This document shows, in pieces, positions 11,528 through 62,824 of a stretch of DNA of 64,000 bases (positions within the stretch are counted from its first letter, which is position 1; the number at the start of each line of letters is the position of its first letter). The notes under the pieces are model-generated. The model saw nothing but the letters and a program-made list of their open reading frames with translations. It was not told the DNA's origin and made no database searches. The translations under genes and the position numbers were made by a program. The DNA lies in contig OZ024741.1 of assembly GCA_964016885.1 (NCBI GenBank), positions 287,804,001-287,868,000 of the forward strand, in the 5' to 3' direction. Origin of the DNA: Eledone cirrhosa. Lineage: Eukaryota.

Positions 11528-12335
11528 TTATGATGTCCAATAATGTCTACATATGTTCCTATATTTAATATATAAGTTTATCAAGTGTAAGGTTAATTCA
11601 TAAAATTTGGAGCATCGGCTTTTAGGGTAGCTTAATTTTTCATGAGGAATGTTTAGATAAAAATAAAAATAAAAAATAAAAATAAAAATAAATACAATAA
11701 AATAAACAGTAAAAAGAGGGAATCAAAGATTTAGGAATCAAAAGATTTATCGGCTAGTTCTCATATAAATATAAATCAAACTAAATATACTACATTTTAA
11801 ATTTAAATTTATATTTAAACGTTGAGTTTAATCTATGTTTGCAACAACTGAATAAATTTGTCCGTAGGTTAAGGGAATTTTTAGATTTTAGTATAAAGAA
11901 TATCTCCTCTGCGCAGAGGTCACATGTCTCAGAGGATGAATTAAAAGGAATCCCTCTTGAGACTATATTCCAAGCCGTCGAATATCTAACGTTATCTAGC
12001 TTAAGTTGCCAGAGTACACCTGATAGTGCCGTTGAAGATTTTTTATTTGGATCTGTGAAAGAATTCTTGTGGTTATTATAGCGAAGTTTAAATTCCGTCG
12101 ATGTGGAACCGACGTAGTTAAAAGAATTAGAGTCAGTATTAACATTACAATTGTATACTATATTTTTAACTAAGCAGTTGTTATTTAACGAATAATGAAA
12201 TAAATATGGTTTTATAAATATAGTTTTCCATTTATTTAATATTGTAAATATACTCCAAGTATTTGTCGAGTGCTTTTATATCAGTTATAAATATTTACTA
12301 GTTGTAACCCAACAATTTTAAATATAACTTTACAT
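10171..12335 (-). mobile_element. 5'-truncated PLE (GIY-YIG C-terminus, long 3'UTR, HHR) with a short inverted tail piece
   Basis: Minus strand ~11810-12190 reads CLVKNIVYNC..YVGSTSTEFKLRYNNHKNSF..CDLCAEE..CKHR; 12192-12245 is an inverted copy of 10171-10218. Confidence 0.85.
10210..10271 (-). ncRNA. Minimal hammerhead ribozyme
   Basis: TTTTGT-CTGATGA-stem II-GAAA-TATATA-TA-ATGAAA. Confidence 0.75.
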
Positions 12336-14763: not shown

Positions 14764-15337
14764 TCCTTTGTCAGTGTTGAACAAATGAGCAACGATGGTT
14801 GTTAGACACTGTACGGGTTAATTCGGGATGTTTGTTTACAAACACACCGAGCATTATAATAAATGTTCGGTGAATCCATACGTACATATATATATGTGTG
14901 CATGTATGTATATATATATATATACATACTACTGTACGTCTGTATACATATATGTATGTACGTATACATACTTATATTTAAGTAACAGCCGTACTAAGAG
15001 TGAGAAATGAAATTTCGTTTCATTTTTTTCGTTTATCGTTTTCGGTAGCCCGGCCGATTAACTCACTCGATATGCAAATTAGGCTGCTTAGCCGTTAATA
15101 TGCATAAGGAAAGTATATACTTTCAGACGTTCAACCATCTGGCAGGAAGGTATACGTTGCTGGCGATAGCTAATAAGCTTGAAACTAGTACAGCGTTCCT
15201 TTGTCAGTGTTGAACAAATGAGCAACGATGGTTGCTAGACACTGTACGGCTTAATTCGGGATGTTTGTTTACAAACACACCGAGCATTATAATAAATGTT
15301 CGGTGAATCCATACGTACATATATATATGTGTGCATG

Positions 15338-15423
<86 letters not shown>

Positions 15424-15532
15424 TGTATGTACGTATACATACTTATATTTAAATAACAGTATATACATCCCGAATTAAACCGTACAGTGTCTAGCAACCA
15501 TCGTTGCTCATTTGTTCAACACTGACAAAGGA

Positions 15533-15575
15533 ACGCTGTACTAGTTTCAAGCTTATTAGCTATCGTCAGCAACGT
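15533..15575 (-). ncRNA. Minimal hammerhead ribozyme
   Basis: Same sequence as 14721-14763 on the minus strand. Confidence 0.85.
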
Positions 15576-16164
15576 ATACCTTCCTGCCAGATGGTTGAAC
15601 GTTTGAAAGTATATACTTTCCTTATGCATATTAACGGCTGAGCAGCCTAATTTGCATATCGTGTGAATTAATCGGCCAGGGTACCGAAAACGATAAACGG
15701 AAAAAATGAAACGAAATTTCATTTCTCACTCTTAGTACGGCTGTTACTTAAATATAAGTATGTACACGTACATACATATATGTATACAGACGTACAGTAG
15801 TATGTATATATATATATATACATACTAGACTTAGACTTGATCCTTTTAAAGGTCTCCGTGACATGTGGAAGGAAACAAGCAAGGTATTGTTAATATATGT
15901 GTCTTGTGACAATGTCACTGAGTCAATGTATGTGTGTGTGTCAGAGTGTACGTCAATGATTATGTCAATGTGTGTGTGTGTGTTACAATATGTGTGAGTT
16001 GTGGCTTGTATCAATGTTGGTATATGTGTGTTAGCTTGTCAATATATGTGCGTGTGCTAGAGTGTATGTCAGTGATTGTATCAATGTATATATGCGTGTG
16101 TGTGTGTGTGTCAGTGTTTATGTGATTGTCAATGTGTGTGTGTGTTAATGTCCTACATTTGTGA

Positions 16165-18662: not shown

Positions 18663-18802
18663 TAAACAAGATAATGCATTCAATACAGACGTTTTCTCTT
18701 TTGCAAGAGATGTCAACATGAATAGACCTGTTATTTTTATCTAAAAACATTTTTTCCAATCCATGCCGCCCGTCCCCTCAATCTATTTTATTTCTCATTC
18801 GT

Positions 18803-18838
18803 TCTTCTGATGAAGGACTAGCGTCCGAAACGTTAAGA
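18803..18838 (+). ncRNA. Minimal hammerhead ribozyme (isolated repeat remnant)
   Basis: TCTT-CTGATGA-A-GGAC TAGC GTCC-GAAACGTT-AAGA. Confidence 0.7.
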
Positions 18839-18919
18839 CCCTCTTATATCAAGCGTTAACCTAATATATCCCTTCCATATACTGTACCGATTGTGTTGTT
18901 ATTTCTGTTTACCTTTTAC

Positions 18920-18986
<67 letters not shown>

Positions 18987-19171
18987 GATAAATCTACCAA
19001 GAGTTTACGGTAGTGTCCAATCCGTATGAAGAACTCAATGTATTCCGGATATCATGGAAAGAAGAGATGTAATGAAAAACCACTTTCGGTGAAAGATAAA
19101 CGGTATACAGAGTCAAGATAAAATATTAAACAAATAATGAATAAACAATTCCTTATATTAAACAAAAAAAG

Positions 19172-19326
19172 TTCATTATTTAACGATCGTTTCTAGGATA
19201 TATATGTGTTAGAATTGGTATGCATATTCAACAGATCTATGTACAAAATTATACAAAATTATACAAATTATCAAGATTAAATATACATACCAAACACATA
19301 TATACGCCGTCTTCAGAAATAATGAA
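19172..19326 (-). ncRNA. Hammerhead ribozyme with a long stem II
   Basis: Inverted copy of 30941-31095. Confidence 0.75.
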
Positions 19327-20011
19327 GTATATTTATTGATAATAACAACAATTCAAAATTTCAGTTCAAAATTGACCAATGAAAACACAAAGGGTTAAAT
19401 GCAGTTCGGTGTGTGTATATACATGTAAAACCCTTACACATATTTTACAAAAATGTATGTATAATTTGTATACGCATACTAAAAGGATGGATGCAAATAC
19501 AAAATTTCAAGGTTAATGTCTCTGTAAGCTTACAATGCGCAGATAAGATGCTTATTGACACTTATGAAGTCAAGTATATAAATATATTTTTTCATACTCA
19601 CACATATCCGTACAATCACACATACACGCGCGTATATGCATAAATATACACATAACCACGAACATACAAACACACACACACCCCCACTCACATTTATATA
19701 TGTGGATATAAAATCATAAGCACATGGATATTAATTCACTCACATAAAACACTGGCACACACATTTTTAGATCAAGATACAGAAATTAGGTGGGAGGGGG
19801 GGGAGGGGTCAGTATTCAACTGTCTGAGCAGACTGCCTAATATAAATGTATCTATAAACTAAGAAAAATAAAAAAATAAAACAATAAAATAAAATATAAT
19901 AAATAAAACATTAAAGAGGAAAGAATAGAAAGAAAAACAGAAAAAAGAAAAAAGAAAAAAGAAAAAAGAAATATATCAAGAAAATAAATATATATATATA
20001 TACACATATAT

Positions 20012-20057
<46 letters not shown>

Positions 20058-20262
20058 ATATATATATATACAAAAACATACATATATATACACATAGACA
20101 CACACATATCCATACATAAATATACACACATATATAAACACATACATACATATACACACATCCACACTAAGAACATACATATACACACATATATAAACAT
20201 ATACATATACACACATACATACATATACACATATACATACAAATACACATACATATATATAT

Positions 20263-20310
<48 letters not shown>

Positions 20311-20691
20311 ATGTACATACACGTACATATACACACACATATACATATAATTAGACATACTATATAGACACAGATATATATAACCACACACATACACATG
20401 CACATATACAACACTTACATACTAATATACATACAGATATACACATACATAGCTATATATACACACAAATATATACAGACTTACATATATACACATACAG
20501 ACAAATACTTACGCATCTATATATCGGTATATACATACAAACACCACTACACTATCACACAACTTAGAAATACAAAGAGAAAGGTATATACCTATACACA
20601 CCTACATATACAAATAGAAAAACATATAGATATATATATATATATATATATATACATACACACACATATACACATAGATATATATATATAA

Positions 20692-20733
<42 letters not shown>

Positions 20734-20973
20734 CAAATACACATACATACACATACAGATATATACACATACATACATGTACACACACATAGAAATATTT
20801 ACGCATACACACATACACACATACATATACAGTCATACACACACATACACCTACACGAACATACACATACACATATATAAAGATATATATATACACACAC
20901 ACACACGCAACACATACACACATACACATATATATAAAAAATAAATAATAAAGATATATACATATATATATAT

Positions 20974-21026
<53 letters not shown>

Positions 21027-21101
21027 CACCTAAATATACATACACATACATACACACATACATAGACATACATGTACATACATATACGTACATCGATATA
21101 C

Positions 21102-21132
<31 letters not shown>

Positions 21133-21406
21133 TAGACATATAGATACATACACACACAACTTACATACACACATATATATACATGTATATTCATACATAG
21201 AATTAGATATATAATCATACATACATATGCACTTACTTATACTCATATATACAAATACATACGCATCCATATATGCGTATATACATAAAAAACCACTACA
21301 ACCTCACTTAACTCAGACATACAAATAAAAATAATAATAAAAAGGCATATGTATATACATACACATACGCATTAATAGAGATATATATATACACACATAC
21401 ATACAC

Positions 21407-21437
<31 letters not shown>

Positions 21438-21710
21438 TATATATATATATACACACACATACACTCATACATATATATATATATATACACATAGATACCC
21501 ACACACTCATACCACCATAAATACACATACAAACACCCACATATACATATATATACACACGTATATATATATATATATATATACACACACATAAAAAACA
21601 GACATGCACATATATATATATTTTTTTACACTTATATATACACATATTATATACACATACACAACCTCACTTATACACACATACACATAAGTTATATTAT
21701 AATAATAAAG

Positions 21711-21759
<49 letters not shown>

Positions 21760-21849
21760 CATACATACATATATATACATACATACATATAAACATATAC
21801 ATACATAAATACACACATACGAATATAGACATATATTCACACATAGACA

Positions 21850-21902
<53 letters not shown>

Positions 21903-23567
21903 ATATACACAGACACATATACACACTCACATATATATATGTGTGTGTGTGCACACACACATATATACACACATACACATATATACACATAAACACATAC
22001 ATATGCATACATGCACACACACACACATATATCACATAGATACGAAGATAGACATATAAATAGAGAGACATACATATATATACAACACACATACACACAC
22101 ATACATACACACGCATATACATATACATATATATATACATATACATATTCCTATATATACATGCATACATATATATACACATATATACACATACATACAC
22201 ATATACGTACACACATTCACATACACATACATATATACATGCATATATACACATATATACATACATACACACACTCATATATACATACACAATCTTACAT
22301 TCATATTTGCATGCGCATATATGTATTTTTATATTTAGATATAAATACCCAAACCTATATAGACACCTACCTACATATATATTCATACATAGACGCTTAC
22401 AAATACAGATGATAATAGTATGGGGGAAAGGGGGGGTTTGGAGAAGGGGATCAAAGTAAATATATGTTTCAAGAAACATAGAATATTTTCCGTATCTTTA
22501 TCCAATGTATGTTCTTACATATTTTCAGTGTTAGGAAATACAACAAACAAGAACTAAGGCAAAATCTATGCATCTCAAAATAAACAAGTATACCATTAAT
22601 CATATGTTAACTAAACCAAAGATAGTTAACATATTGATTTCTAAGGTGTAAATTAGTTAGGTTTATAATATTTGAAGCAGAATTTTGAAGTTAAACAGTA
22701 GTAGAGTATTAATTACAGTATAACTAAATTAAAGTTAATAACGTTATGGTATCAATATTAGGAAATGAATTTAGTAATAGGGAAAAAAAACACAAATAAA
22801 AATAAAATAAAGTATTACATCGGTAGTAGAATATAAATTATAGGTTAACTAAATTAAAAATTATATATTTATTTCAATAGTATATGTTAATTAGGTATAC
22901 AATACATAAAGCAGATATTGTATTTCATCAATAGCATAATATAATTATAAGCAAATAGAAATCAAAATTAATACGCATACATATACATATACATACACAT
23001 ACATATATACATATATATACACACATATATATATATATATACACATATATACACATATACATACACACACACACACATACACATACACATATACATATAC
23101 ATATCTTTTTCAAAAAATTGCATAGAATATATTAACTAGGTATATATCCAAAACACATCCCATTCTATGATTACATGACATTCTGCAATTCGTCTGTATA
23201 AGGATACTAATTTTAAGCAAATTAAAATTAAAATTTTTAGGTTGATTAAAACTAAAACCAAATTATAAATATATTTCTAAAATGTATATTAATTAGGTCT
23301 ATAATACTAAAAATTATTTCTCTGTCATTGGATACACGATATTATTTTGTTATATTTTATCTGTAAAAGAATTATAATAAAAAGGTTTAAATAAATTAAA
23401 ATTAATCTATAAATTAAATTACTAAGTATATATTAGTAATATTTAAAGGTTTTTCACAATTTATGATTACATAATATTTTATATTCTCATCTGTAATAAA
23501 ATTTTAATTAAATTAAATTTATAGGTTAACTAACATTTAAATTAAATTAATTTCTAAAATAATGTTA

Positions 23568-25199
23568 TTAATTAGGTTTATAATATTTAAATGTTTTTTT
23601 TAGTTTATGATTACACGATATAATTAATTCCTGTCGTTTATTTAATAAGATATCCTTAGACTTCATTATTTCAAATAGTTCTTGGGAACATAATCTACAT
23701 TCATTTCTATTATTTTGATAAGGGGTGGCTCTTTTGAGCACACTCCAGGTCAAATCATATTTTATATTCTTATTTTTATAACTATTGATTTTTTCTGCTA
23801 GAGATGTTGTATTAGCCAGTGCGGCATTTTAAAAAAAATGCTTGTGGGTATTAAACCTTGTCTTAAAATTGTTAGAGGTAGCTCCTATATATGAGCAAAT
23901 AGAATCTTTAGTTTTAACATTACATTTATAGACTATGTTGTTAACAAGACAATTCCCTTTTAATGGGCAGTTTGCTTTGTTTCTACAGTTACATCCTTTC
24001 GTTAATTCTGTATTTGAGGAGATATTATGGTTAATTTGATGTACTGGTGGTATACTTATGGTTTTCTTACATTTATATGCATTATATGCACTTATATTTT
24101 GTTTTATGTTATTTGTTGTAGAGTATGAGAATTTAACTGTAGACCTATTTAAGATTTGATGGTATTTGTGGTTTGGCGGGAAGTTTTTCTCAAGGATATA
24201 AAAAAAATTTTTAGCAATATTATCCTTAACTTGTAAATTAAAAGGAGCATTATACCAAGTAACCCGTCTATTACGGTTTCTATGTTGTTTATTATTTTTA
24301 TTATTTTTATAGGTTGTATCGTGATTTTTACTAGGAGGATTAATGTTAATGATCTCACCACAACTATTTTTAGTTATATTTGTAGATTTAGGTGTTTTAT
24401 CCTTTTTATTAGGAGTTTTATTATTAATATTTATTATAGTTGTATGATGAGTATTTTTTTGAGAGTTACTATACTTTATATTAGAAGATTTGGTATTTTG
24501 GGGTATAGTGTGGGTGGCATTTAGGTGTGTACTTTTCATTTGGTGTTTGTTGGTAATATTATGTTGTATGCTTTCAGTATTTTTAGTAGAAGGTATATAC
24601 TCTAATCTATTTTTGTGGCCACTTCTATCTAGAGCTTCGTTATAGAAGGTCGCATTTTTATCAAATACATCTTGGTTAGAAGAAAGGTTAGAAATTCTAA
24701 GTGATATATTATATGCAAGGTTTTTAAGGATAGATTTAGGGTGATTAGATTGTGAGTGTATGTAATGTAAGTTTTGGTTAGGTTTATGGTAAGGTTGGTA
24801 GATACCCGTAGCTAAATCTAAAGTTATATCTAGGAAATTTACTACTTTACTTGTTTTTTCAAAAGTAATATTAAGATTATAATAGTCTTTAAGGAAAGTT
24901 CTAATATGTTTTTTGTTTTTTTCAATTTCTGAAAGGCTAAGGTTGTTAGAAAGAAGAAGACAGTCATCACGATATAAACCACCTTTGAGGTGGGGAAAAG
25001 AGGCATTTATGTTGAAAAGGAGAAAGAGGCCCACAAGATCAGTAATTTGGGCGGAATCGCTTGAACCCATAGTAATATCAAAAAGATTACTGTATGTGTT
25101 TCTGGTCCAGTATTCATTCTGAAATTCAATAAGTGTTAGTCTAGCATGTGTAATAATGTTAATGTCATCCAAAGTTAAGTTAGATATATTAGTTAACAT
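23568..25199 (-). pseudogene. PLE RT (5'-truncated) plus GIY-YIG endonuclease, with a frameshift at a poly-T run
   Basis: FDITMGS, GLYRDD, VNFLDITL, CNC-X5-CPL-X3-C linker, NIVYKC..YIGAT, CRLC..E, CNH. Confidence 0.9.
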
Positions 25200-26787
25200 T
25201 ATTACACATGCTAGACTAACACTTATTGAATTTCAGAATGAATACTGGACCAGAAACACATACAGTAATCTTTTTGATATTACTATGGGTTCAAGCGATT
25301 CCGCCCAAATTACTGATCTTGTGGGCCTCTTTCTCCTTTTCAACATAAATGCCTCTTTTCCCCACCTCAAAGGTGGTTTATATCGTGATGACTGTCTTCT
25401 TCTTTCTAACAACCTTAGCCTTTCAGAAATTGAAAAAAACAAAAAACATATTAGAACTTTCCTTAAAGACTATTATAATCTTAATATTACTTTTGAAAAA
25501 ACAAGTAAAGTAGTAAATTTCCTAGATATAACTTTAGATTTAGCTACGGGTATCTACCAACCTTACCATAAACCTAACCAAAACTTACATTACATACACT
25601 CACAATCTAATCACCCTAAATCTATCCTTAAAAACCTTGCATATAATATATCACTTAGAATTTCTAACCTTTCTTCTAACCAAGATGTATTTGATAAAAA
25701 TGCGACCTTCTATAACGAAGCTCTAGATAGAAGTGGCCACAAAAATAGATTAGAGTATATACCTTCTACTAAAAATACTGAAAGCATACAACATAATATT
25801 ACCAACAAACACCAAATGAAAAGTACACACCTAAATGCCACCCACACTATACCCCAAAATACCAAATCTTCTAATATAAAGTATAGTAACTCTCAAAAAA
25901 ATACTCATCATACAACTATAATAAATATTAATAATAAAACTCCTAATAAAAAGGATAAAACACCTAAATCTACAAATATAACTAAAAATAGTTGTGGTGA
26001 GATCATTAACATTAATCCTCCTAGTAAAAATCACGATACAACCTATAAAAATAATAAAAATAATAAACAACATAGAAACCGTAATAGACGGGTTACTTGG
26101 TATAATGCTCCTTTTAATTTACAAGTTAAGGATAATATTGCTAAAAATTTTTTTTATATCCTTGAGAAAAACTTCCCGCCAAACCACAAATACCATCAAA
26201 TCTTAAATAGGTCTACAGTTAAATTCTCATACTCTACAACAAATAACATAAAACAAAATATAAGTGCATATAATGCATATAAATGTAAGAAAACCATAAG
26301 TATACCACCAGTACATCAAATTAACCATAATATCTCCTCAAATACAGAATTAACGAAAGGATGTAACTGTAGAAACAAAGCAAACTGCCCATTAAAAGGG
26401 AATTGTCTTGTTAACAACATAGTCTATAAATGTAATGTTAAAACTAAAGATTCTATTTGCTCATATATAGGAGCTACCTCTAACAATTTTAAGACAAGGT
26501 TTAATACCCACAAGCATTTTTTTTAAAATGCCGCACTGGCTAATACAACATCTCTAGCAGAAAAAATCAATAGTTATAAAAATAAGAATATAAAATATGA
26601 TTTGACCTGGAGTGTGCTCAAAAGAGCCACCCCTTATCAAAATAATAGAAATGAATGTAGATTATGTTCCCAAGAACTATTTGAAATAATGAAGTCTAAG
26701 GATATCTTATTAAATAAACGACAGGAATTAATTATATCGTGTAATCATAAACTAAAAAAAACATTTAAATATTATAAACCTAATTAA
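25199..26787 (+). pseudogene. Inverted duplicate of the PLE RT plus GIY-YIG
   Basis: Protein identical to the minus-strand copy from NIITHARL onward; same frameshift at ~26517-26524. Confidence 0.9.
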
Positions 26788-28454
26788 TAACATTATTTTA
26801 GAAATTAATTTAATTTAAATGTTAGTTAACCTATAAATTTAATTTAATTAAAATTTTATTACAGATGAGAATATAAAATATTATGTAATCATAAATTGTG
26901 AAAAACCTTTAAATATTACTAATATATACTTAGTAATTTAATTTATAGATTAATTTTAATTTATTTAAACCTTTTTATTATAATTCTTTTACAGATAAAA
27001 TATAACAAAATAATATCGTGTATCCAATGACAGAGAAATAATTTTTAGTATTATAGACCTAATTAATATACATTTTAGAAATATATTTATAATTTGGTTT
27101 TAGTTTTAATCAACCTAAAAATTTTAATTTTAATTTGCTTAAAATTAGTATCCTTATACAGACGAATTGCAGAATGTCATGTAATCATAGAATGGGATGT
27201 GTTTTGGATATATACCTAGTTAATATATTCTATGCAATTTTTTGAAAAAGATATGTATATGTATATGTGTATGTGTATGTGTGTGTGTGTGTATGTATAT
27301 GTGTATATATGTGTATATATATATATATGTGTGTGTATATATATGTATATATGTATGTGTATGTATATGTATATGTATGCGTATTAATTTTGATTTCTAT
27401 TTGCTTATAATTATATTATGCTATTGATGAAATACAATATCTGCTTTATGTATTGTATACCTAATTAACATATACTATTGAAATAAATATATAATTTTTA
27501 ATTTAGTTAACCTATAATTTATATTCTACTACCGATGTAATACTTTATTTTATTTTTATTTGTGTTTTTTTTCCCTATTACTAAATTCATTTCCTAATAT
27601 TGATACCATAACGTTATTAACTTTAATTTAGTTATACTGTAATTAATACTCTACTACTGTTTAACTTCAAAATTCTGCTTCAAATATTATAAACCTAACT
27701 AATTTACACCTTAGAAATCAATATGTTAACTATCTTTGGTTTAGTTAACATATGATTAATGGTATACTTGTTTATTTTGAGATGCATAGATTTTGCCTTA
27801 GTTCTTGTTTGTTGTATTTCCTAACACTGAAAATATGTAAGAACATACATTGGATAAAGATACGGAAAATATTCTATGTTTCTTGAAACATATATTTACT
27901 TTGATCCCCTTCTCCAAACCCCCCCCCTTTCCCCCATACTATTATCATCTGTATTTGTAAGCGTCTATGTATGAATATATATGTAGGTAGGTGTCTATAT
28001 AGGTTTGGGTATTTATATCTAAATATAAAAATACATATATGCGCATGCAAATATGAATGTAAGATTGTGTATGTATATATGAGTGTGTGTATGTATGTAT
28101 ATATGTGTATATATGCATGTATATATGTATGTGTATGTGAATGTGTGTACGTATATGTGTATGTATGTGTATATATGTGTATATATATGTATGCATGTAT
28201 ATATAGGAATATGTATATGTATATATATATGTATATGTATATGCGTGTGTATGTATGTGTGTGTATGTGTGTTGTATATATATGTATGTCTCTCTATTTA
28301 TATGTCTATCTTCGTATCTATGTGATATATGTGTGTGTGTGTGCATGTATGCATATGTATGTGTTTATGTGTATATATGTGTATGTGTGTATATATGTGT
28401 GTGTGCACACACACACATATATATATGTGAGTGTGTATATGTGTCTGTGTATAT

Positions 28455-28513
<59 letters not shown>

Positions 28514-28603
28514 TGTCTATGTGTGAATATATGTCTATATTCGTATGTGTGTATTTATGTATGTATATGTTTATATGTATGTATGTATATATATGTATGT
28601 ATG

Positions 28604-28650
<47 letters not shown>

Positions 28651-29228
28651 CTTTATTATTATAATATAACTTATGTGTATGTGTGTATAAGTGAGGTTGT
28701 GTATGTGTATATAATATGTGTATATATAAGTGTAAAAAAATATATATATATGTGCATGTCTGTTTTTTATGTGTGTGTATATATATATATATATATATAC
28801 GTGTGTATATATATGTATATGTGGGTGTTTGTATGTGTATTTATGGTGGTATGAGTGTGTGGGTATCTATGTGTATATATATATATATATGTATGAGTGT
28901 ATGTGTGTATATATATATATATATATATGTGTATATATATATATATATATATGTGTGTATGTATGTGTGTATATATATATCTCTATTAATGCGTATGTGT
29001 ATGTATATACATATGCCTTTTTATTATTATTTTTATTTGTATGTCTGAGTTAAGTGAGGTTGTAGTGGTTTTTTATGTATATACGCATATATGGATGCGT
29101 ATGTATTTGTATATATGAGTATAAGTAAGTGCATATGTATGTATGATTATATATCTAATTCTATGTATGAATATACATGTATATATATGTGTGTATGTAA
29201 GTTGTGTGTGTATGTATCTATATGTCTA

Positions 29229-29259
<31 letters not shown>

Positions 29260-29334
29260 GTATATCGATGTACGTATATGTATGTACATGTATGTCTATG
29301 TATGTGTGTATGTATGTGTATGTATATTTAGGTG

Positions 29335-29383
<49 letters not shown>

Positions 29384-29623
29384 ATATATATATATGTATA
29401 TATCTTTATTATTTATTTTTTATATATATGTGTATGTGTGTATGTGTTGCGTGTGTGTGTGTGTATATATATATCTTTATATATGTGTATGTGTATGTTC
29501 GTGTAGGTGTATGTGTGTGTATGACTGTATATGTATGTGTGTATGTGTGTATGCGTAAATATTTCTATGTGTGTGTACATGTATGTATGTGTATATATCT
29601 GTATGTGTATGTATGTGTATTTG

Positions 29624-29656
<33 letters not shown>

Positions 29657-29969
29657 GTTTTTCTATTTGTATATGTAGGTGTGTATAGGTATATACCTTT
29701 CTCTTTGTATTTCTAAGTTGTGTGATAGTGTAGTGGTGTTTGTATGTATATACCGATATATAGATGCGTAAGTATTTGTCTGTATGTGTATATATGTAAG
29801 TCTGTATATATTTGTGTGTATATATAGCTATGTATGTGTATATCTGTATGTATATTAGTATGTAAGTGTTGTATATGTGCATGTGTATGTGTGTGGTTAT
29901 ATATATCTGTGTCTATATAGTATGTGTAATTATATGTATATGTGTGTGTATATGTACGTGTATGTACAT

Positions 29970-30017
<48 letters not shown>

Positions 30018-30222
30018 ATATATATATGTATGTGTATTTGTATGTATATGTGTATATGTATGTATGTGTGTATATGTATATGTTTATATATGTGTGTATA
30101 TGTATGTTCTTAGTGTGGATGTGTGTATATGTATGTATGTGTTTATATATGTGTGTATATTTATGTATGGATATGTGTGTGTCTATGTGTATATATATGT
30201 ATGTTTTTGTATATATATATAT

Positions 30223-30266
<44 letters not shown>

Positions 30267-30940
30267 ATATATGTGTATATATATATATATTTATTTTCTT
30301 GATATATTTCTTTTTTCTTTTTTCTTTTTTCTGTTTTTCTTTCTATTCTTTCCTCTTTAATGTTTTATTTATTATATTTTATTGTTTTATTTTTTTATTT
30401 TTCTTAGTTTATAGATACATTTATATTAGGCAGTCTGCTCAGACAGTTGAATACTGACCCCTCCCCCCCCCTCCCACCTAATTTCTGTATCTTGATCTAA
30501 AAATGTGTGTGCCAGTGTTTTATGTGAGTGAATTAATATCCATGTGCTTATGATTTTATATCCACATATATAAATGTGAGTGGGGGTGTGTGTGTGTTTG
30601 TATGTTCGTGGTTATGTGTATATTTATGCATATACGCGCGTGTATGTGTGATTGTACGGATATGTGTGAGTATGAAAAAATATATTTATATACTTGACTT
30701 CATAAGTGTCAATAAGCATCTTATCTGCGCATTGTAAGCTTACAGAGACATTAACCTTGAAATTTTGTATTTGCATCCATCCTTTTAGTATGCGTATACA
30801 AATTATACATACATTTTTGTAAAATATGTGTAAGGGTTTTACATGTATATACACACACCGAACTGCATTTAACCCTTTGTGTTTTCATTGGTCAATTTTG
30901 AACTGAAATTTTGAATTGTTGTTATTATCAATAAATATAC

Positions 30941-31095
30941 TTCATTATTTCTGAAGACGGCGTATATATGTGTTTGGTATGTATATTTAATCTTGATAAT
31001 TTGTATAATTTTGTATAATTTTGTACATAGATCTGTTGAATATGCATACCAATTCTAACACATATATATCCTAGAAACGATCGTTAAATAATGAA
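30941..31095 (+). ncRNA. Hammerhead ribozyme with a ~115-nt stem II insertion
   Basis: 10-bp stem I TTCATTATTT/AAATAATGAA, CTGAAGA, GAAA-CGATCG-TT. Confidence 0.75.
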
Positions 31096-31140
31096 CTTTT
31101 TTTGTTTAATATAAGGAATTGTTTATTCATTATTTGTTTA

Positions 31141-31180
<40 letters not shown>

Positions 31181-31181
<1 letters not shown>

Positions 31182-31693
31182 TGAGTTAGAAACTTAAAGT
31201 AGTCTCTTACAATTAAATAGCTCTAAGAAAAAAGCTTTTCCGAGCCATATAATATAATTGAATATATAAGAGATATGAACACTAATATAAACATACATGT
31301 GTCCGAATTGTAAAGACCAGGTTTTCTAGGGTGAAAAAATGCTAACTACAGCAATATGGTTTGCCAGACTTAATTTAAAGTAGTAAATTAAGAAAAATAA
31401 TAACAAACCTATATTATAGAAACTGTTTCGCAAAAAAAAATCATATTAAGCGAAGTCATCACCATGGTGCTGACTTCGCTTAATATGATTTTGCGAAACA
31501 GTTTTTATAACTGTCTAGGTTTTTCAGGCAGTTGCCCAATATAAGTTTGTTATTATTTTTCTTAATTTACTACTTTAAATTAAGTCTGGCAAGCCATATT
31601 ACTGTAGTTAGTATATTTTCACCCTAGCAAACTTGGTCCTTACAATTCGGACACATGTATGTTTATATTAGTGTTCATTTCTCTTGTATATTC

Positions 31694-31700
<7 letters not shown>
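31181..31700. mobile_element. Older, diverged fold-back PLE remnant
   Basis: Centre CACCATGGTG at ~31459-31468; imperfect arms; HHR 3' half GCGAAACAGTT; tail hairpin at 31220-31245. Confidence 0.7.
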
Positions 31701-46130: not shown

Positions 46131-47209
46131 AGAAAATCCAAAAATCCAAAAAAAAATTATCATGTGAAAAATTGACAAAAAAATCGACAAAAATGGCGCG
46201 CGTGAAAAAAAATCAAAAAAACCCAAAAAAATTTGCATGTGAAAAATTGACAAAAAATCGACCAAAAATGGCGCGCGTGAAAAAAATCCCAAAAAAATTT
46301 GCATGTGAAAATTGATATTTGCCTTCTATTGCATTAGAATTTGTCATGTTTAATTAAAATGTTATTTTCAACTAAATGCAAATGGTGCAAATTTGCTCCA
46401 TTTAGATTCAGTTGTTAATGCTCACCTACTAATTTAAAAAAATTGTATTTTCTTAAATGACTCTTATTTATCATAAGTTAATATTTTTAAGATAGGTGAG
46501 TGCTCCACGATCTGACCTATGTCCCCGCCATGTGGAGTGGATGCTTGTACCAATTAGATAAAATATCTCAACTTATTTCTGTGACTCCAATGCACAGGCT
46601 GACACTGTAGCTTGAATTAAATTCAAAATTGGTACAAGTAACTAAGAGGTCACAAAAGAATAGCTTCACTTTCACCTATAGTTTTCATTAACATCATTTT
46701 TGGGATTTTTTGATAGAAGTAACTAAAGTAATAACTATTTAATTAAGTAGTTGTTGTTTGCATTGCCTTGAAAAATAGGAAACTAGCTAGAAAAATGCGT
46801 ACAGCAAAAAAAAAGTAATATTGTTGGAACAAACCTTTAAAAATACAGGACAAGGAAGTAAGATAAACCTTTAAAAATACAGGACAAAGAACTAAGATAA
46901 AACTTTAAAAGAATAGGACAAGGAATATAAATTTTTACAATAATATTAGTGGCAAAAATTTTATTGGAAAAATAGATAATTGATCAAATAAAAGTGATTT
47001 ATTTGAGTAACATGAAATTACTTAATGAGAAATATCAATACAATGAAATTGATCCCTGTCTTGTGTTCCTCCTCCAAGTCCGAGTTGTACCAACTGGTTC
47101 ATTGGTTCATGAGGAAGTGGGCCAGGAAAAATGTAGGAAAAGTCATCATGGTTCATTTCTGTTCTTCCCTTCTACTCGAGCCCCCTCAGCGCCTGCATCC
47201 CCCAGCTAC

Positions 47210-47630
47210 AATGACTCCCAAATCAGCAGTCTGTTGCTCCTGCACCAACGCCTCCACCTCCTCCCCCCTCGTCGCCTGCTTCAACTTTCATCATTGCTGC
47301 GCCAACATGCCCAGTGCTGTCTGGAAGTGGTTCAACGAGTCCGGCGCCGGCTTCACCTGCTTCAAGTGCTCTCCCAGGAAGAAGCACTCTGCCCTATCCA
47401 CCTGCCCTTCTACCACTGCCCATGAAGCCAGTCCGGAACCGTCAACCGTGCCTCAAAGTGTCATCGAGGACCAGCAGGATTCCGAGTCGAACACGGGCCC
47501 ATTCACCTTGGTCACTCGCCGTCATCGTCCCAGAGTCAAGACCCGTACCCCTCCCTCTCCCCCTCCAGTTCCTGCTCCGACCCAGTCCGAGTTGCGCCGG
47601 GTCATCCGCGAGGAGTTGGACCGGGAAAGA
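47210..47630 (+). pseudogene. Captured GC-rich fragment encoding a PHD-like zinc finger (LINE ORF1-like)
   Basis: CCSC..C..FHHCC..FTCFKC followed by FTLVTRR and a Pro-rich linker. Confidence 0.45.
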
Positions 47631-48225
47631 TGACAGACAAGTGATCATGGTTGGAGTGGATGCATGCGGAACATCATAGTTGTAATTGGTGTAATGATGG
47701 AAACTCAATTTTTTTACCAATTGAATTTTGCCACTAATATTATTGTAAAAATTTATATTCCTTGTCCTATTCTTTTAAAGTTTTTATCTTAGTTCTTTGT
47801 CCTGTATTTTTAAAGGTTTATCTTACTTCCTTGTCCTGTATTTTTAAAGGTTTGTTCCAACAATATTACTTTTTTTTGCTGTACGCATTTTTCTAGCTAG
47901 TATATTATATGTGTATATATATACATATATATATACATATATATTATATGTATATATATATACATATAGTTAAAAGAATAGAGGTGTAACACACAAGTTA
48001 TTATATATTGGTAAACGGAATAGAAAATGCTGACAAATTGTTCACAGTTGAAAAAATGGTTTAATTAGGAATAAAAGAGTATTAGTGATTGTATGGGTTA
48101 GTATTCAGTTGTGGTTTAAGTTTTTAAGTTTTTACCGGTTGCGCATTTCTAAATGCTTTTCAAAAATAATTTTGAGATAGAGTGTCCGTGCTGTTTGCTC
48201 TGATCAGATATATATATATATATAT

Positions 48226-48270
48226 AATATTGCTGATGAGTTGTAACAACAACGAAACTAGTTCAATATT
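48226..48270 (+). ncRNA. Minimal hammerhead ribozyme (perfect), at the start of a ~340-bp unit in (TA)n
   Basis: AATATTG-CTGATGA-GTTG TAACAA CAAC-GAAA-CTAG-TT-CAATATT. Confidence 0.9.
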
Positions 48271-49642: not shown

Positions 49643-51790
49643 TCATTTGTAGAATGGGAATATTATAAATATTCCCTGACCACATGTTGCTAGATGGTTA
49701 CTTAGGGGTATCTGACGGACATTTGGGTCTCTGATTTGCTGACGGTGTACCCGTGCACGTTCCGATAGTGCATTTCCAGTTTGACCGACATATAGTTCTT
49801 CACAATTCGGGCATTTAATGCAGTAAATTAGATTTCTGCTTTTGCAGTTCATATTTGCATTTGGGAATATTTTTCCAGCTTTTGTTTTCATATATTGACC
49901 GGCGTGTATGGATTGACATGTGCCGCATCGACTATCATTGCATTTAGATACAGTGAATGATTGGTCTTTGTTGTTAAGGTCAAACTTTGCTTTTGTTAGT
50001 AATTGCTTCAAATTTTTTGGCTGTCTTTTACTAAGAGTCAAAGATCGATCTGTGATTAAGCCTTTTAATTCATTACTTTGAGCAATGATCGGTAGGTTTG
50101 CTTTGGCAGTGTTGAAGATGTTCTGATGACATGGGTTGTGTGTCATTATAAATGGTATGACCAGTTCTTGGTTTCTTCTTCCTTGGGTTGTCCTAAGTTG
50201 TTGTATAGGTATTTTTATAGCCCGCTGTATGCCATTTTCTATAAGTAGAAATGGGTATTTTTGTTTGAGCAAAAATTCTCTTAGTTCTGTTAGGCGTTTG
50301 TACCTGGTATTCGTATCTTCTACAATGGTACAAATTCTTCTGGCTAGGCAGTATGGGATGTTGCGTTTTGTATGAGGTGGATGGCACGACTTAAAATTCA
50401 GATATTGATGGGTGTCTGTGTGTTTATAATATATATCCGTGGTAATGGTGGTGTCGTTTTTGATTATCATTATATCTAGGAATGGTAATTTGGTCCTACT
50501 CATCTCTTTTGTGAATTGGAGAGATGGGTGTAGGTTATTCAGGAGGATATTGAACTCATCCAGAGTATCTAGAGATTCTGTCCAGATGATGAAACAGTCG
50601 TCAAGGTATCTCTTTCAAGATTTTTCAATGTACTTTCTAAAGTCAGTACTATATTTTTCCTCTATTTCTTGGTAGAGTTGTTGTTCTAAGTATCCCATTA
50701 CAGAGTTCGCGTAAACGGGAGCAAACTTCGTTCCCATCGCTGTGCCTCTAATTTGGATGTAATTCTTTCCATTGAAGAAGAAAGTGTTGTTTTCCAGAAT
50801 AAGTTTAACTGCGTCTAATATAAATGGCGCTGTGAATCTGATGGGAATCACTTCTCTATGTTTTTCCACCCAGTATTGAACCGCCTTTATTCCTAAATCA
50901 TGTGTAATGTTGGTGTAAAGGCTTACCACATCAAAACTAAGTAGAAGTGAATTCGTTTCCGTGGTTTTGGGAAGATGGGACAGGAAGTCGATATCATCCC
51001 GGATGAAACTGGGTATGTGAATACATAGTGGTTTCAAAATAATGTCAACAAAATTGCTTAGACGGTGGGTGGGCATGTTGGACCAACTATAATAGGTCTA
51101 AGTTTTAAGTCTTTTGGGTGTAGTAATTTAATGTACTTACTGTTTTGTTCTCTTACTGCCAGTTGTATTTCTTTTGACTTATGAACTTTCGGTAGGCCAT
51201 ACAGGTTGCTGGGTTTCGGCTCAAAATTGGTGATGTAGTCTCTTTCCTTATCAGTAAGTGAGTTGTGGTATTTTGAAGCCAGGTTGTTGATCTTCATCAT
51301 GATGTTGTGGTCTATATTTGACGGTATTTCATGATAGAATGTTGTGTCTTTCAGTTGTTCCTCAACCAAATCCTTGTAGTATTCAGTATCCATTATAACA
51401 ACTGCACCCCCTTTATCGGCTTGTTTAATTATTATTGTTTTATCATTTTGTATACGTTTAAGTGCAGACATTTCTGATTTGTTAATGTTTGGCCTAATAT
51501 TAGTATTACGTCTAAGAGGAAATTTAGACAGGATGTCAATGTATTGGTCGAGATAGATATTTCTTCCTTTTGGCGGAGTGAAATTTGATTTATTCTTTAC
51601 TAGTGATTCATCACTCTCATTACTTTTATCAGCGAAGAATTCTACAATACGTAATTTTCGACAGAATTCTTGGGTATCCTCCTTCAGTTCTTGGTGGTTG
51701 ACTGTTGGAGTCGGTGTGAATTTCAGTCCTTTTGACAGAATTTGCATTTCATCATTGTCAAGATCTTTTTTAGATAAATTAATTCTTTTA
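49643..51790 (-). pseudogene. PLE reverse transcriptase plus GIY-YIG endonuclease (frameshifted)
   Basis: LSKGLKF, ADKG, YGLPKVHK, LRPI, SFDVVSLYTNI, GTAMG, RYLDD, PFLDI, C..C..C linker, NLIYCIKC..LYVGQTG. Confidence 0.9.
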
Positions 51791-51794
51791 GGAT

Positions 51795-53141
51795 CTATGT
51801 GTACAGTTGTTTTGGGTATGTTTCCTCCTGGAGTTTTTCTTTTTCCGGTTTTTGTTGTCCTGACGTTAAAACATGGATTTTTCTCTGTTCAGGATTTATA
51901 TTCCTGTTGGTGTTCGCTTGATGAACTTTTGGTCGTGATATTATATTTGGTTTCGTTATGTATTTTGTCCTATTTTTGGTATTATGTATATTATTTTTCC
52001 TGTTAGCATTATTTTTAACAATCTGGGGAAATGACCTAGGTTTGCTTTCAGGTTTAGATCGTCTTTTCGCCCAGTTTCTTGTGGGCAATCTCTGTTGAGA
52101 TCTTGAGAGTGATCTGGTTATTCTACGTTTTGTTTCCACATTCCTTGTTGGTAGTCTCTGTTGAGATCTTGAGAATGATCTCCTGGTTTTACTACTTCTC
52201 ATGGTCTGGTCAAAGGAATATCTATCGTGTTTGTGTTTTTTGTTCATGTTGTGTGCGATAGGGTGTTTTTGTAGAAAAAGCGAAGAGTTATTACCGTAGT
52301 TCTTCTTTGATACAAGGTAAGGTGAGTGTTTGTGTTGGCACGTGTTCTGGCGTATGTTGTGTTGGTGAGATTGTCCACTTTTAATGCTTTTTCTCAGGGT
52401 TCCAGAGTCTTTACCGTAATTTGCAGCATATTCGTCGAGAAATAATTGTTTCTGCTGCCATACCTTTCTTGATTTGTTTTCTTCTTTTGAGATATCTCTG
52501 ATCCATAGTTCTCGTAGTTTTTCAGCTATAATACCAGTCGTTAGCTTTGAAATTTCAACTTCAATTTGGTCATCAACTGCTTCATATTTGGCTTTGTAGC
52601 GGGATTGTTTACATTGAGAAATGGAGATGTCGGTCCTGAATTTTGTCAATGTAAGTTCCCATCGGAGTTTTGTTTCTTCTTCTGGTTCGCCTGCAATTTC
52701 TATAATTAGGTATTTACGAGGGAGTATGGATGCCGTTAGAGAGAGCCATTTTGAATGTGTTTCGACATATTTTTCGCATTTGTATGCTTTCCAGAAGTTT
52801 TGTTTTCTTATGTTAAGAAATTTTTTCCATGTCTTCCACATTTCTTTTCTTATTCGATGTGTTTTGTTTTCCAAATTTCTTTCGTTTAGTTCTGACATCC
52901 AAGGGGGTTGTGGTAGGCTTTCTCTTGTATCTTTGGTAACCGTTGGTATAATTTCAGCTAAATTCTTAATTTCAGAGTTTATATGTTCAGTTATAAGTTT
53001 TCCGTCTGTAGATTGTTTTTCTATTTCCTTTAAAATAGAGGATTGTGTGTCAATCATCGTGATAAGTGTTGATAATTTCGATGATATCTCCTTTAGAATT
53101 CTTTCTGATTCTGTTGATTTCATTTGTTGCTTTCCAGACAT
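51795..53141 (-). CDS. Long N-terminal extension or upstream ORF of the PLE (coiled-coil plus basic region)
   Basis: 448-aa open frame just upstream of the RT; homologous to 56904-58067. Confidence 0.7.
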   Translation of the reverse strand: MSGKQQMKSTESERILKEISSKLSTLITMIDTQSSILKEIEKQSTDGKLITEHINSEIKNLAEIIPTVTKDTRESLPQPPWMSELNERNLENKTHRIRKEMWKTWKKFLNIRKQNFWKAYKCEKYVETHSKWLSLTASILPRKYLIIEIAGEPEEETKLRWELTLTKFRTDISISQCKQSRYKAKYEAVDDQIEVEISKLTTGIIAEKLRELWIRDISKEENKSRKVWQQKQLFLDEYAANYGKDSGTLRKSIKSGQSHQHNIRQNTCQHKHSPYLVSKKNYGNNSSLFLQKHPIAHNMNKKHKHDRYSFDQTMRSSKTRRSFSRSQQRLPTRNVETKRRITRSLSRSQQRLPTRNWAKRRSKPESKPRSFPQIVKNNANRKNNIHNTKNRTKYITKPNIISRPKVHQANTNRNINPEQRKIHVLTSGQQKPEKEKLQEETYPKQLYT

Positions 53142-54072
53142 GTTGGCATATACACAATAGGAATATATATATATAGAGATAGATAAATATACACGCGTGT
53201 GTTTGATTGTGTATAGAAGATTATATTAATAAGAGGAATTCCAACTTTGTCTGATTTACTCGTTTTATTTACAATCCTTTAAAATTTATAATGGTATTAT
53301 AATGAAATAGCAATTTTCAACAGTTGAAAATTGGTATTTCATTATAATACCACATATTATGAACTTGAAGATTGCGAAAACATGAAAGTACTTGTTCAAT
53401 TAACACTTAGAATTTAATATTCTATCATACTATTTCATTATAATACCATTATAAATTTTAAAGGATTGTAAATAAAACGAGTAAATCAGACAAAGTTGGA
53501 ATTCCTCTTATTAATATAATCTTCTATACACAATCATACACACCCGTGTATATTTATCTATATATATATATATATATAGGAACAAGTAAGACCCCGACGG
53601 CTGAGCTCAAGCCGTTTCGACGGCTAATTCTGGACTGAATGAAAATTTATTCAGGTATTTAAATAGCCGAGCTTATCAGGGGTAATTCCATATATGGTCA
53701 AAGAGATAATCACCAGGATTGGTCACATCACAAGTTAGTAGTAAATCTGTGATGGCAAATTGGTAGGGGAAGGGGTAGCTGAACCTGCCGGTAGGAGAAA
53801 AAGGGAGAGGGGTGGAGTAGACCCATTCATGCGTTGGTAGTGCCGGCTACAGCTGGGTGTGAGGTCAAAGAAGATACTGGGGAGGGGGAGGGGGAGGAAG
53901 TCGAAACGGTAAGTAAAACAAAGAAGGGTAAAACTATAAAAAGTACTGAGAGAGAAAAAAAAAATAAGCAAAGTCTGGTTACTAAGACTTAAGTCTCTCG
54001 CTATTGCTAGGCTAAAGAAATACATAAATAAATAAATAAACAAATAAGTGAATAAAAGAATAGATAAATAAA

Positions 54073-56903: not shown

Positions 56904-58067
56904 TTAGACTCTTGCGTGGCCGTTGCTGTATGGGGGTCTGGTTCTTCTGTTGATTCGTTCAGTATTCATGTGTCTTTGATTTTGTCTCCGGTGATTGTTC
57001 TTGGTGTTATGGCAGTGGTTGTATCTGGTTCTGGTGTTGAGTATTGGGTCTGTATGTAGTTGTGTGTTTGGGGTTACCCAATATCTGGTTGTTGTTGGTT
57101 TATTGTGTGTGGGTGCTTCATTTCTTGTGTTGTTGTATTTTCCTGAGTTCTGGGGTTTCCTATGGGTTTGTTTTCTGGGTTTTATTTGGTCTTTCCCATA
57201 GTTATCTTCATATTCTTGAAGCCATTGAGTTCTTGACTCCAAGATTTTCTTTGATTTTAACTCCTCTCTAGTTGTATCTGTCTGCCATAGGTTAAGGAGT
57301 TTTTCACGTACATTGCCGCTGCTTCTTTTGTTTATTTCCTCTTGGATGGTGGTGTCGCATTTTTCAAATTTCTCTTTGAATTTTGGCACTCTTAGGCGGA
57401 GTAGGGTGATTTCGGTCTCAAGTGTTTGGAGTGCTAGATTTAGTCTTGTTGCAGTTTCTTCCTTTGATTCCGATGGTATTTCTTTAATTCGGAATTTTCT
57501 CGGGAGGATAACTGGTTCCTTGCTACGCCATATTTCGTATGTGTCTGCTAGGTTTTCACTCCTCAAGGCTTTCCAGTATGCCTGTTTCCTTTGATTTAAT
57601 AATGGGTTCCAAATGTTTTTCATTTGGTTTCTTTTTCTGTAGGCTTCTTTTTCTAGGTTCAGTTCATTCCATTCTTTGAATGCATTATTGGTGATGGAGT
57701 TCTGTTCATGTGTAGCTATTTCAGGAGAAAAGGTTTGTTCTTGTTTTTGCCGGCCTGTAATTAGTGAATCAAGTTTTTCCCTATAGCTGCGTGTTTGTTG
57801 TTCCATTTCTTGTACGGCATTCGTAAGGGAATCATATTTATCTATTATTATGGTGAGTTTTTCTGATATTTCCTGTAGTAGTGTATCCGATTTGAGGGAT
57901 TCAGTAGAGGATTTTGAACGTGTGTTAGCCATTCTGTCTTGTACAAGGGGATAGAATATTGGAAAATGTGTGTAATCCTTGGTACAGTTAGGTATATTAA
58001 GACAGGGGGGAAGAAAAAATGGCTTCACTTGTGCTTTCAACAAATTTATTTTCTTCACAAAATCCAA
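56904..58067 (-). CDS. PLE N-terminal extension homolog without a downstream RT (likely start MANTRSK at ~57932)
   Basis: Shares LLQEISEKL, RKQAYWKA, ILPRKF..EI..E..EET..R and EY..NYGKD with 51795-53141. Confidence 0.65.
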   Translation of the reverse strand: MDFVKKINLLKAQVKPFFLPPCLNIPNCTKDYTHFPIFYPLVQDRMANTRSKSSTESLKSDTLLQEISEKLTIIIDKYDSLTNAVQEMEQQTRSYREKLDSLITGRQKQEQTFSPEIATHEQNSITNNAFKEWNELNLEKEAYRKRNQMKNIWNPLLNQRKQAYWKALRSENLADTYEIWRSKEPVILPRKFRIKEIPSESKEETATRLNLALQTLETEITLLRLRVPKFKEKFEKCDTTIQEEINKRSSGNVREKLLNLWQTDTTREELKSKKILESRTQWLQEYEDNYGKDQIKPRKQTHRKPQNSGKYNNTRNEAPTHNKPTTTRYWVTPNTQLHTDPILNTRTRYNHCHNTKNNHRRQNQRHMNTERINRRTRPPYSNGHARV

Positions 58068-59962: not shown

Positions 59963-60157
59963 AATCTGTCTAGAGAATTCTCTAAATCTTTGTCACTTAG
60001 TAGAACCTTAATGAATTTAGCTTTTAAAGAATCTCCCTTTCCTTTAATTCTATCTACCATGACTGACCACCCCACTGATCTTATAGACATCTGTTAGCTT
60101 AAGAGAAACTTAATGACAAGGAATGGTATGCCATCCGGAACCTGTTTATAGAATTCT

Positions 60158-62824
<2,667 letters not shown>

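What the first reader, a model, noticed from the sequence alone, without database searches (positions are those of the whole stretch)
18985..31148. 12-kb PLE palindrome with a snap-back signature at its centre
Seen: ~6-kb arms are separated by a ~30-bp spacer bounded by AATGTTAA/TTAACATT. The spacer reads as continuous RT frame only on the minus strand (LTNISNLTLDDINIITHAR). Both arms share the same poly-T frameshift before the GIY-YIG C-terminus but differ in microsatellite lengths and a ~70-bp indel near 20620-20690. Inference: truncated cDNA folded back on a short microhomology and copied itself. Because the frameshift predates duplication, a defective RNA may have been mobilised in trans.
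Basis: partly seen in the sequence, partly recalled or inferred. Interest (0 to 1): 0.7.

Follow-up and report, generated by a model that had tools for sequence, protein, structure and literature searches.

The report
Twin-primed Penelope retrotransposon palindrome
This 12-kb mirror repeat is one dead insertion of a very common Penelope-like jumping gene in a layout already described for such elements, and sister insertions indicate that its two halves were likely copied separately from one RNA at two fixed start points rather than by one DNA copy folding back.

Summary
The palindrome is real: arms 19118-25162 and 25193-31149, 30-nt centre, 13 arm differences. It is a 5'-truncated head-to-head insertion of a young Penelope-like element (PLE) with the protein motifs of the Hydra clade (1,626 exact marker hits in this genome), set in (TA)n. 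The shared 'frameshift' is an in-frame TAA with no length change. AATGTTAA/TTAACATT are only the arm ends: the parent shows no microhomology and the joint holds a 7-nt insert. The layout is the family's normal product: in 31 of 38 fetched loci both ends resolved, always one arm with a 137-nt tail and one without. The tail-less arm reaches further 5' in 16 of 31, which a lone snap-back cannot make. Changes shared by both arms are 17 of 37 synonymous against 3 of 33 for arm-specific ones, so they are likely template-borne. Best reading: two target-primed cDNAs from two start sites, joined at their 3' ends. Here the shared stop is unique in the assembly, so either a defective RNA was copied in trans or a local fold-back occurred. 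The architecture is in print, and this scan reached the two-primer reading before on other DNA.

The parts
18920..18984 (.). left (TA)n-rich target microsatellite
   Evidence: sequence, TRF
18981..19117 (-). 137-nt 'tail' present on the left arm only (family end L014 position 529); holds a small TTTC-ACC-GAAA hairpin motif at 19083-19095
   Evidence: motif seen by eye after the lead e1-8837782
19118..25162 (-). left arm: pLTR part, ~4.4-kb microsatellite-rich 3' UTR, 5'-truncated RT-EN ORF
19182..19316 (-). predicted type I hammerhead core, 10-bp stem I, very long stem II (left copy)
   Evidence: motif scan
20629..20705 (.). 77 nt present in the left arm and in sister copies, deleted from the right arm
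23585..25185 (-). left truncated ORF (RT core to GIY-YIG C-terminus) with in-frame TAA at 23829-23831
25163..25185 (-). 23 nt of parent RT sequence carried by the left arm only
25186..25192 (.). 7-nt junction insert, resembling a garbled parent continuation; no exact microhomology
25193..31149 (+). right arm, ending at the family's tail-less end (L014 position 392)
25193..26770 (+). right truncated ORF; Hydra-type CxCX5C linker, GIY-YIG, CxxC and CxH motifs
26518..26526 (+). two-base change plus in-frame TAA, in both arms, found as a set nowhere else in the assembly
30941..31095 (+). predicted type I hammerhead, CUGAAGA/GAAA core, ~110-nt stem II (right copy)
   Evidence: (z -6.81); no Rfam hammerhead hit at E<=1
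31147..31180 (.). right (TA)n target microsatellite

Best explanation
This is a single dead, 5'-truncated head-to-head insertion of a Penelope-like retrotransposon in a TA microsatellite, whose two arms were likely made as two separate cDNAs, primed on the two cut target strands at two fixed start sites 137 nt apart on the element's RNA and then joined at their unfinished ends. Shown: the layout, the two fixed ends, independent inner breakpoints across sister loci, the 7-nt junction insert and the shared in-frame stop. Inferred: nicking of both strands by the GIY-YIG domain, two priming events, end-joining of the cDNAs, and, for this locus, that the stop was already in the RNA, so that a working endonuclease would have come in trans.
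For: Two fixed ends: 3,805 tail+TA and 3,277 tail-less+TA exact junctions genome-wide; 50 of 52 outward-facing neighbour pairs on C1 0-108 Mb are one of each. Of 38 fetched loci 31 had both ends resolved, all one of each; the 5'-longer arm is the tailed one in 13, the tail-less one in 16, equal in 2 (my tally). In the 16 each arm holds sequence the other lacks. Breakpoints are uncorrelated (Spearman -0.01, n=21). In tandem-plus-inverted loci the inverted arm shares a non-majority base with the outermost unit at 3 sites and with the inner unit alone at 0; in two of these the inverted arm has the tail that the long arm lacks. ORF changes shared by both arms: 17 synonymous, 20 not; arm-specific: 3 synonymous, 30 not; Fisher p=0.001; neutral expectation 20-27%, i.e. 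shared changes passed selection in active donors and are not copied RT errors or converted mutations. Inverted arms differ no less than tandem units (39/31,944 vs 16/17,385 sites, p=0.40). In vitro, an anole PLE nicks and extends both strands, starts RT at two internal sites that bound the tail, and is predicted to be a dimer (PMC11167929).
Against: This locus alone is geometrically compatible with fold-back (the left arm contains all of the right arm; 23-nt loop). It is the only 1 of 25 pairs with ORF overlap whose arms share a stop, no donor with the lesion exists in the assembly or was seen in 4 runs of contigs, and its shared changes extend base runs (4 of 5, against 1 of 34 and 1 of 15 elsewhere), an odd signature that one error-prone cDNA copied once would explain. 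Near-symmetric centres are 4 of 21 against 0.8 expected (p=0.005), though 2 of 16 (p=0.14) among loci chosen by marker alone. In one four-unit tandem the short arm lacks a change private to the outer unit. 'Private' is relative to my sample of copies. 48 of 100 tailed ends had no exact-pattern partner within 20 kb and 7 of 38 loci stayed unresolved.
Confidence: 0.6

Rival explanations
1. Hybrid fold-back: both target ends are primed, but only the tailed cDNA runs long, slips, snaps back over a 23-nt loop and copies itself; the copy then anneals without a scar to a short cDNA primed at the tail-less site. The shared stop is then an RT error copied once and no defective RNA is needed.
For: Short loop and 7-nt insert; no substitution between arms in 1,752 ORF-region sites; genome-unique run-extending lesions in both arms; self-priming was proposed for PLE head-to-head palindromes (PMC3846280).
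Against: No parent microhomology; arm-shared changes across the family are selection-filtered, also in near-symmetric loci L025, L032, L037 (5 synonymous, 4 not); short loops are not in excess among marker-chosen loci and were 0 of the 13 further resolved loci; for tandem loci it needs loops of 7-10 kb. The locus was picked for its symmetry.
Confidence: 0.25
2. Twin-primed insertion followed by DNA-level repair: cruciform breakage or arm-to-arm gene conversion later trimmed the centre and copied a mutation cluster from one arm to the other.
For: Long near-perfect palindromes are known to be unstable and to convert (own knowledge); would explain a shared stop without a donor.
Against: Inverted arms are not more alike than tandem units; shared changes are synonymous-rich, unlike converted neutral mutations; 13 arm differences persist here.
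Confidence: 0.1
3. Pure cis snap-back of one truncated cDNA on an 8-nt microhomology.
For: The locus geometry allows it; the loop is parent sequence on the tailed arm.
Against: The 8-mers are arm ends, not parent homology; the fixed tail-less end is unexplained; 16 of 31 sister loci cannot be made this way.
Confidence: 0.03
4. Assembly artefact from fold-back chimeric reads or arm homogenisation in polishing.
For: No read of this individual could be laid; no listed record bridges the centre; run-boundary changes recall long-read errors.
Against: The arms stop at two different family-defined ends with unrelated unique flanks; a chimeric read would mirror the left flank; 13 arm differences include a 77-nt deletion; the same layout with different centres recurs at dozens of loci; the run changes keep length at all three sites.
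Confidence: 0.02

Closest known systems
Hydra clade of C-terminal EN+ Penelope-like elements (Craig et al. 2021, PMC8557442; abstract, passages and section 11 read)
   Same: RW[K/R] and DKT motifs, divergent RT4(B), CxCX5C linker, C-terminal GIY-YIG with CxxC and CxH beside the conserved E and N, hammerhead in the pLTR, insertion into (TA)n, partial tandems with an inverted 5'-truncated copy.
   Different: Unit is 6.4-7.4 kb (tandem spacing) rather than under 3 kb, because of a ~4.4-kb microsatellite-rich 3' UTR; tail 137 nt rather than 30-40; hammerhead stem II ~110 nt; ORF 813 aa with a ~100-aa N/K/T-rich insert that most relatives lack.
Adineta vaga Penelope insertions with head-to-head palindromes, tail and proposed self-priming (Arkhipova et al. 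2013, PMC3846280; parts 1-4 of 5 read)
   Same: Head-to-head inverted junctions, one-sided tail, spacer between ORF and 3' pLTR, N-rich ORF inserts, trans mobilisation by pLTRs.
   Different: That paper reads the palindromes as self-priming, possibly on an antisense template; the counts here favour two separately primed cDNAs. Arms here are 6 kb, not pLTR-sized.
Anolis Poseidon PAc in vitro (Frangieh et al. 2024, PMC11167929; parts 1-3 of 4 read)
   Same: Two internal RT start sites bounding the tail, AT-rich target, both strands nicked and extended, start sites downstream of the hammerhead.
   Different: Different clade; start sites there lie inside the ORF and close together; the passages read do not derive the inverted duplication from the two starts.
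L1 twin priming (recalled, not tested here)
   Same: Two target nicks prime on one RNA; cDNA ends joined with short microhomology or inserts.
   Different: L1 gives an inversion without duplication; here both primers start near the 3' end and give an inverted duplication.

Membership tests
EN+ Penelope-like element | Single ORF with RT and GIY-YIG endonuclease | tested here: met
   813-aa open frame in sister copy L014; RT and EN motifs conserved in a 14-sequence alignment; 117 homologues at E<=1e-30. Pfam gave no RT or GIY-YIG hit, so this rests on motifs.
EN+ Penelope-like element | pLTR from partial tandems, inverted 5'-truncated copy, one-sided tail | tested here: met
EN+ Penelope-like element | Hammerhead in the pLTR | tested here: met
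   Core and 10-bp stem I in both arms, fold z -6.81; no Rfam hammerhead hit; cleavage not tested.
Hydra clade | RWK and DKT motifs, divergent RT4(B) | tested here: met
   RVRWRAY (RVRWKAY in L016), HSDKTG, DITMGSSDSAQ (features)
Hydra clade | CxCX5C linker; CxxC and CxH around EN E and N; no CCHH | tested here: met
   CNCRNKANC, CRLCSQE, NKRQELIISCNH; absence of CCHH judged by eye
Hydra clade | Insertion into (TA)n | tested here: met
Hydra clade | Generally short (<3 kb); a tendency in the paper, not a strict criterion | tested here: not met
   Tandem spacing 6.4-7.4 kb
Hydra clade | RT phylogeny with named Hydra consensus sequences | not tested
   No named reference sequences were fetched; supplements of PMC8557442 were not opened
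Naiad/Chlamys | N-terminal GIY-YIG, no hammerhead | tested here: not met
   EN is C-terminal, hammerhead present
Microhomology-primed cis snap-back product | Inverted microhomology in the parent at the breakpoint | tested here: not met
   7-nt insert, no exact overlap
Microhomology-primed cis snap-back product | Second arm wholly contained in the first | tested here: inconclusive
   True at this locus; false at 16 of 31 resolved sister loci

The most novel reading that the evidence does not exclude
Long-armed insertions of this family give genomic proof that PLEs insert by two separately primed cDNAs from two fixed start sites on one RNA: either arm can be the longer, the inverted arm copies the outermost tandem unit, and arm-shared changes carry the mark of purifying selection while arm-specific ones do not. 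This locus would then be a rare record of a nonsense-bearing PLE RNA mobilised in trans against otherwise strong cis preference (0 of 24 other pairs share a stop).
Probability: 0.5. Interest if true: 0.5.

Novelty: new member of a known kind. Interest (0 to 1): 0.3.

Why it matters
How PLEs build their tandem and inverted ends is still called undefined in the literature read (PMC8557442, PMC11167929). The locus itself is ordinary debris, one of thousands. The value lies in the family: 6-kb coding arms allow tests that pLTR-sized stubs do not (synonymous versus non-synonymous sharing, inner versus outer tandem unit), and these favour twin priming over the published self-priming idea. It also warns that such palindromes are not assembly errors and that arm ends are not microhomologies.

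Tried and rejected
Pfam scans of the truncated and the full ORF: no RT or GIY-YIG hit. Rfam at E<=1: only microsatellite-driven miRNA-type matches below gathering scores, no hammerhead. Public runs: 8 of 12 listed hold part of the stretch; laying 4 runs on the centre and 4 on the lesion showed the family but no listed record bridging the junction and none with the two-base change; these are contigs or RAD reads, perhaps of other individuals or species, so this proves nothing about the locus. Naiad (my first guess from the N-terminus, recalled) rejected: EN is C-terminal. Single-site matches to the window's changes (L085, L088, L089) belong to other sublineages and are homoplasies, not donors. 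Polarising the 13 arm differences: derived states on both arms, microsatellites too variable to decide. Inner/outer test at L039 and L033: mostly uninformative; the L033 outer comparison failed for a missing anchor. A 6-nt slip template for the junction insert (AGTTAA at 25173-25178) is seen by eye but is near chance in AT-rich DNA. Paper searches (listings only, except the papers named): 'twin priming' with 'Penelope' gave 3 papers, none on PLE mechanism by title or abstract start; the library lacks most subscription papers. bioRxiv 10.64898/2026.07.22.740005: part 1 of 5 read, not used. No supplements were opened; those of PMC8557442 may list this family or longer tails.

Full report
Observation. 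Self-BLAST finds one large inverted repeat, 19118-31149, 97.8%; the inner arms 22430-25162 and 25193-27925 are separated by 30 nt. A global alignment of the arms gives 4 substitutions and 9 indels, including 77 nt at 20629-20705 missing from the right arm; sister UTRs carry the long form. The left arm continues 137 nt further to about 18981 and both ends run into (TA)n. Flanks differ on the two sides, which a fold-back read would not give.

Two corrections. The lesion near the EN is not a frameshift: against sister copy L014 the right arm has 7 substitutions and no indel over 1,763 nt, and the frame continues after a TAA at 26524-26526 in both arms. The centre has no parent microhomology: full-length copies match the minus strand through 25185 and then go on differently; 25186-25192 is a 7-nt insert.

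What it is. The own genome (3.0 Gb, 1,796 contigs) holds 1,626 exact hits to a 30-mer of the EN region. L014 carries an 813-aa open frame with all protein features that Craig et al. list for the Hydra clade: RW[K/R], DKT, CxCX5C, C-terminal GIY-YIG, CxxC and CxH. The pLTR holds a type I hammerhead core with a very long stem II. The unit is 6.4-7.4 kb because a ~4.4-kb microsatellite-rich UTR lies between ORF and pLTR. I did not build a tree with named Hydra sequences, so the clade call rests on motifs.

The layout is the family's rule. Among the first 100 marker hits, 16 neighbour pairs are head-to-head, 9 tandem, 0 tail-to-tail. Two ends recur: a tailed end and a tail-less end 137 nt inside it, 3,805 and 3,277 exact junctions with TA. 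On C1 0-108 Mb, 50 of 52 outward-facing neighbour pairs are one of each; 52 of 100 tailed ends have such a partner by exact pattern, the rest are untested. I fetched 37 other loci (16 chosen by the marker, 4, 7 tandem or single-marker loci, 10 nearest by UTR). With the window, 31 of 38 had both ends resolved and all 31 have one of each; 7 were unresolved (L024, L026, L033, L092, L099, L156, L158; L024 and L099 may be exceptions). The 5'-longer arm is the tailed one in 13, the tail-less one in 16, equal in 2 (tally). In the 16 each arm has sequence that the other lacks, so neither can be a fold-back copy of the other. Of 14 junctions scored exactly, 9 have 0-5 nt overlap (5 of 9 have 2 or more; 19% expected) and 5 have 2-7 nt inserts.

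Are the arms copied from each other or from the RNA? Arms are always closer to each other than to other sampled loci, but no closer than tandem units of one insertion (39/31,944 vs 16/17,385 adjacent-unit sites). In 26 pairs scored (2 of 28 gave no pair; 1 of the 26 had no ORF overlap), changes shared by both arms and absent from other sampled copies are 17 synonymous and 20 not, arm-specific changes 3 and 30 (p=0.001). Copied RT errors or converted mutations would be neutral; template-borne changes from working donors would be filtered, as seen. Where a tandem lies opposite the inverted arm, that arm shares a non-majority base with the outermost unit at 3 sites and with the inner unit alone at none. 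Together with the in vitro finding that a PLE protein nicks and extends both strands from two internal start sites that bound the tail (PMC11167929), the simplest mechanism is: both strands of (TA)n are nicked, each primes a cDNA at its own start site on the same pLTR, both stop early, and their ends are joined. The layout and counts are shown; the enzymatic steps are inferred.

This locus. It is unusual in one way: it is the only 1 of 25 pairs whose arms share a stop. The exact lesion occurs only here; single-site matches elsewhere are other sublineages; none of 25 nearest loci by UTR shows it where they cover the site. Its shared ORF changes extend base runs in 4 of 5 cases, against about 5% background. 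Under twin priming the RNA carried the stop, which falls before the conserved E and N of the EN, so the nuclease would have come in trans from another copy and the donor is missing from this assembly. Under a hybrid model one error-prone cDNA folded back and was captured by a short second cDNA. The 23-nt loop fits the second, but short loops are no commoner than chance among marker-chosen loci (2 of 16, p=0.14) and this one was picked for its symmetry. I put 0.6 on twin priming, 0.25 on hybrid fold-back, 0.1 on later DNA repair, 0.05 on pure snap-back or artefact.

Known and new. Head-to-head palindromes, one-sided tails, self-priming and trans mobilisation are in print for PLEs (PMC3846280; PMC8557442). 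I had the two-primer reading before opening the scan's notes (and stated); the notes show that it was reached repeatedly on other DNA and in this genome, which is no independent support. Verdict: real, ordinary for its class, first reading partly wrong; interest 0.3.

Noticed in passing
G000 C1 0-108 Mb: 17 of 52 outward-facing end pairs are 527-600 bp apart: a sharp class of pLTR-only palindromic stubs, suggesting both cDNAs often run off one fixed RNA 5' end.
   Followed up: no
L014:415-427 and 542-553; window 19083-19095: A TTTC-AC[C/G]-GAAA hairpin motif lies 23 nt past the tail-less end and 13 nt past the tailed end; candidate start-site signal.
   Followed up: partly
window 18797-18840 (+): A minimal hammerhead-like motif (CTGATGA ... 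GAAAC) of another element just left of the target microsatellite, seen by eye; a further core with 7-bp stem I at 48233-48263.
   Followed up: no
window 49643-53225 (-), 56904-58079 (-), 11790-12275 (-): Remains of other PLE-like elements: weak Pfam GIY-YIG and RVT_1 hits at 49643-51097; 11790-12275 resembles a Hydra-type EN by eye.
   Followed up: partly
window 60154-62828: 2.7-kb TA-rich array bounded by ~70-bp near-perfect inverted repeats; a MITE-like or fold-back element of unknown family.
   Followed up: no
window 46800-47900: Element with ~120-bp terminal inverted repeats built of 34-bp units around a 205-aa frame with a CxxC-type motif; no Pfam hit.
   Followed up: no
window 31280-31700 and 14861-15825: Two further small inverted repeats: a ~400-bp hairpin right of the insertion and a ~940-bp repeat with direct and inverted copies of a microsatellite-bearing unit.
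   Followed up: no
L033:1161-1729: A small tailed/tail-less palindromic stub of the same family nested in the UTR microsatellite of a larger copy: the element's own TA-rich UTR is a target.
   Followed up: partly
L061/L039 inner tandem unit, UTR end: Three G>A changes within about 400 nt in one unit of a very young array; possibly deamination of single-stranded cDNA.
   Followed up: no
L014 ORF residues about 470-570: N/K/T/H-rich in-frame insert absent from most relatives, recalling the N-rich inserts of Adineta PLEs.
   Followed up: partly
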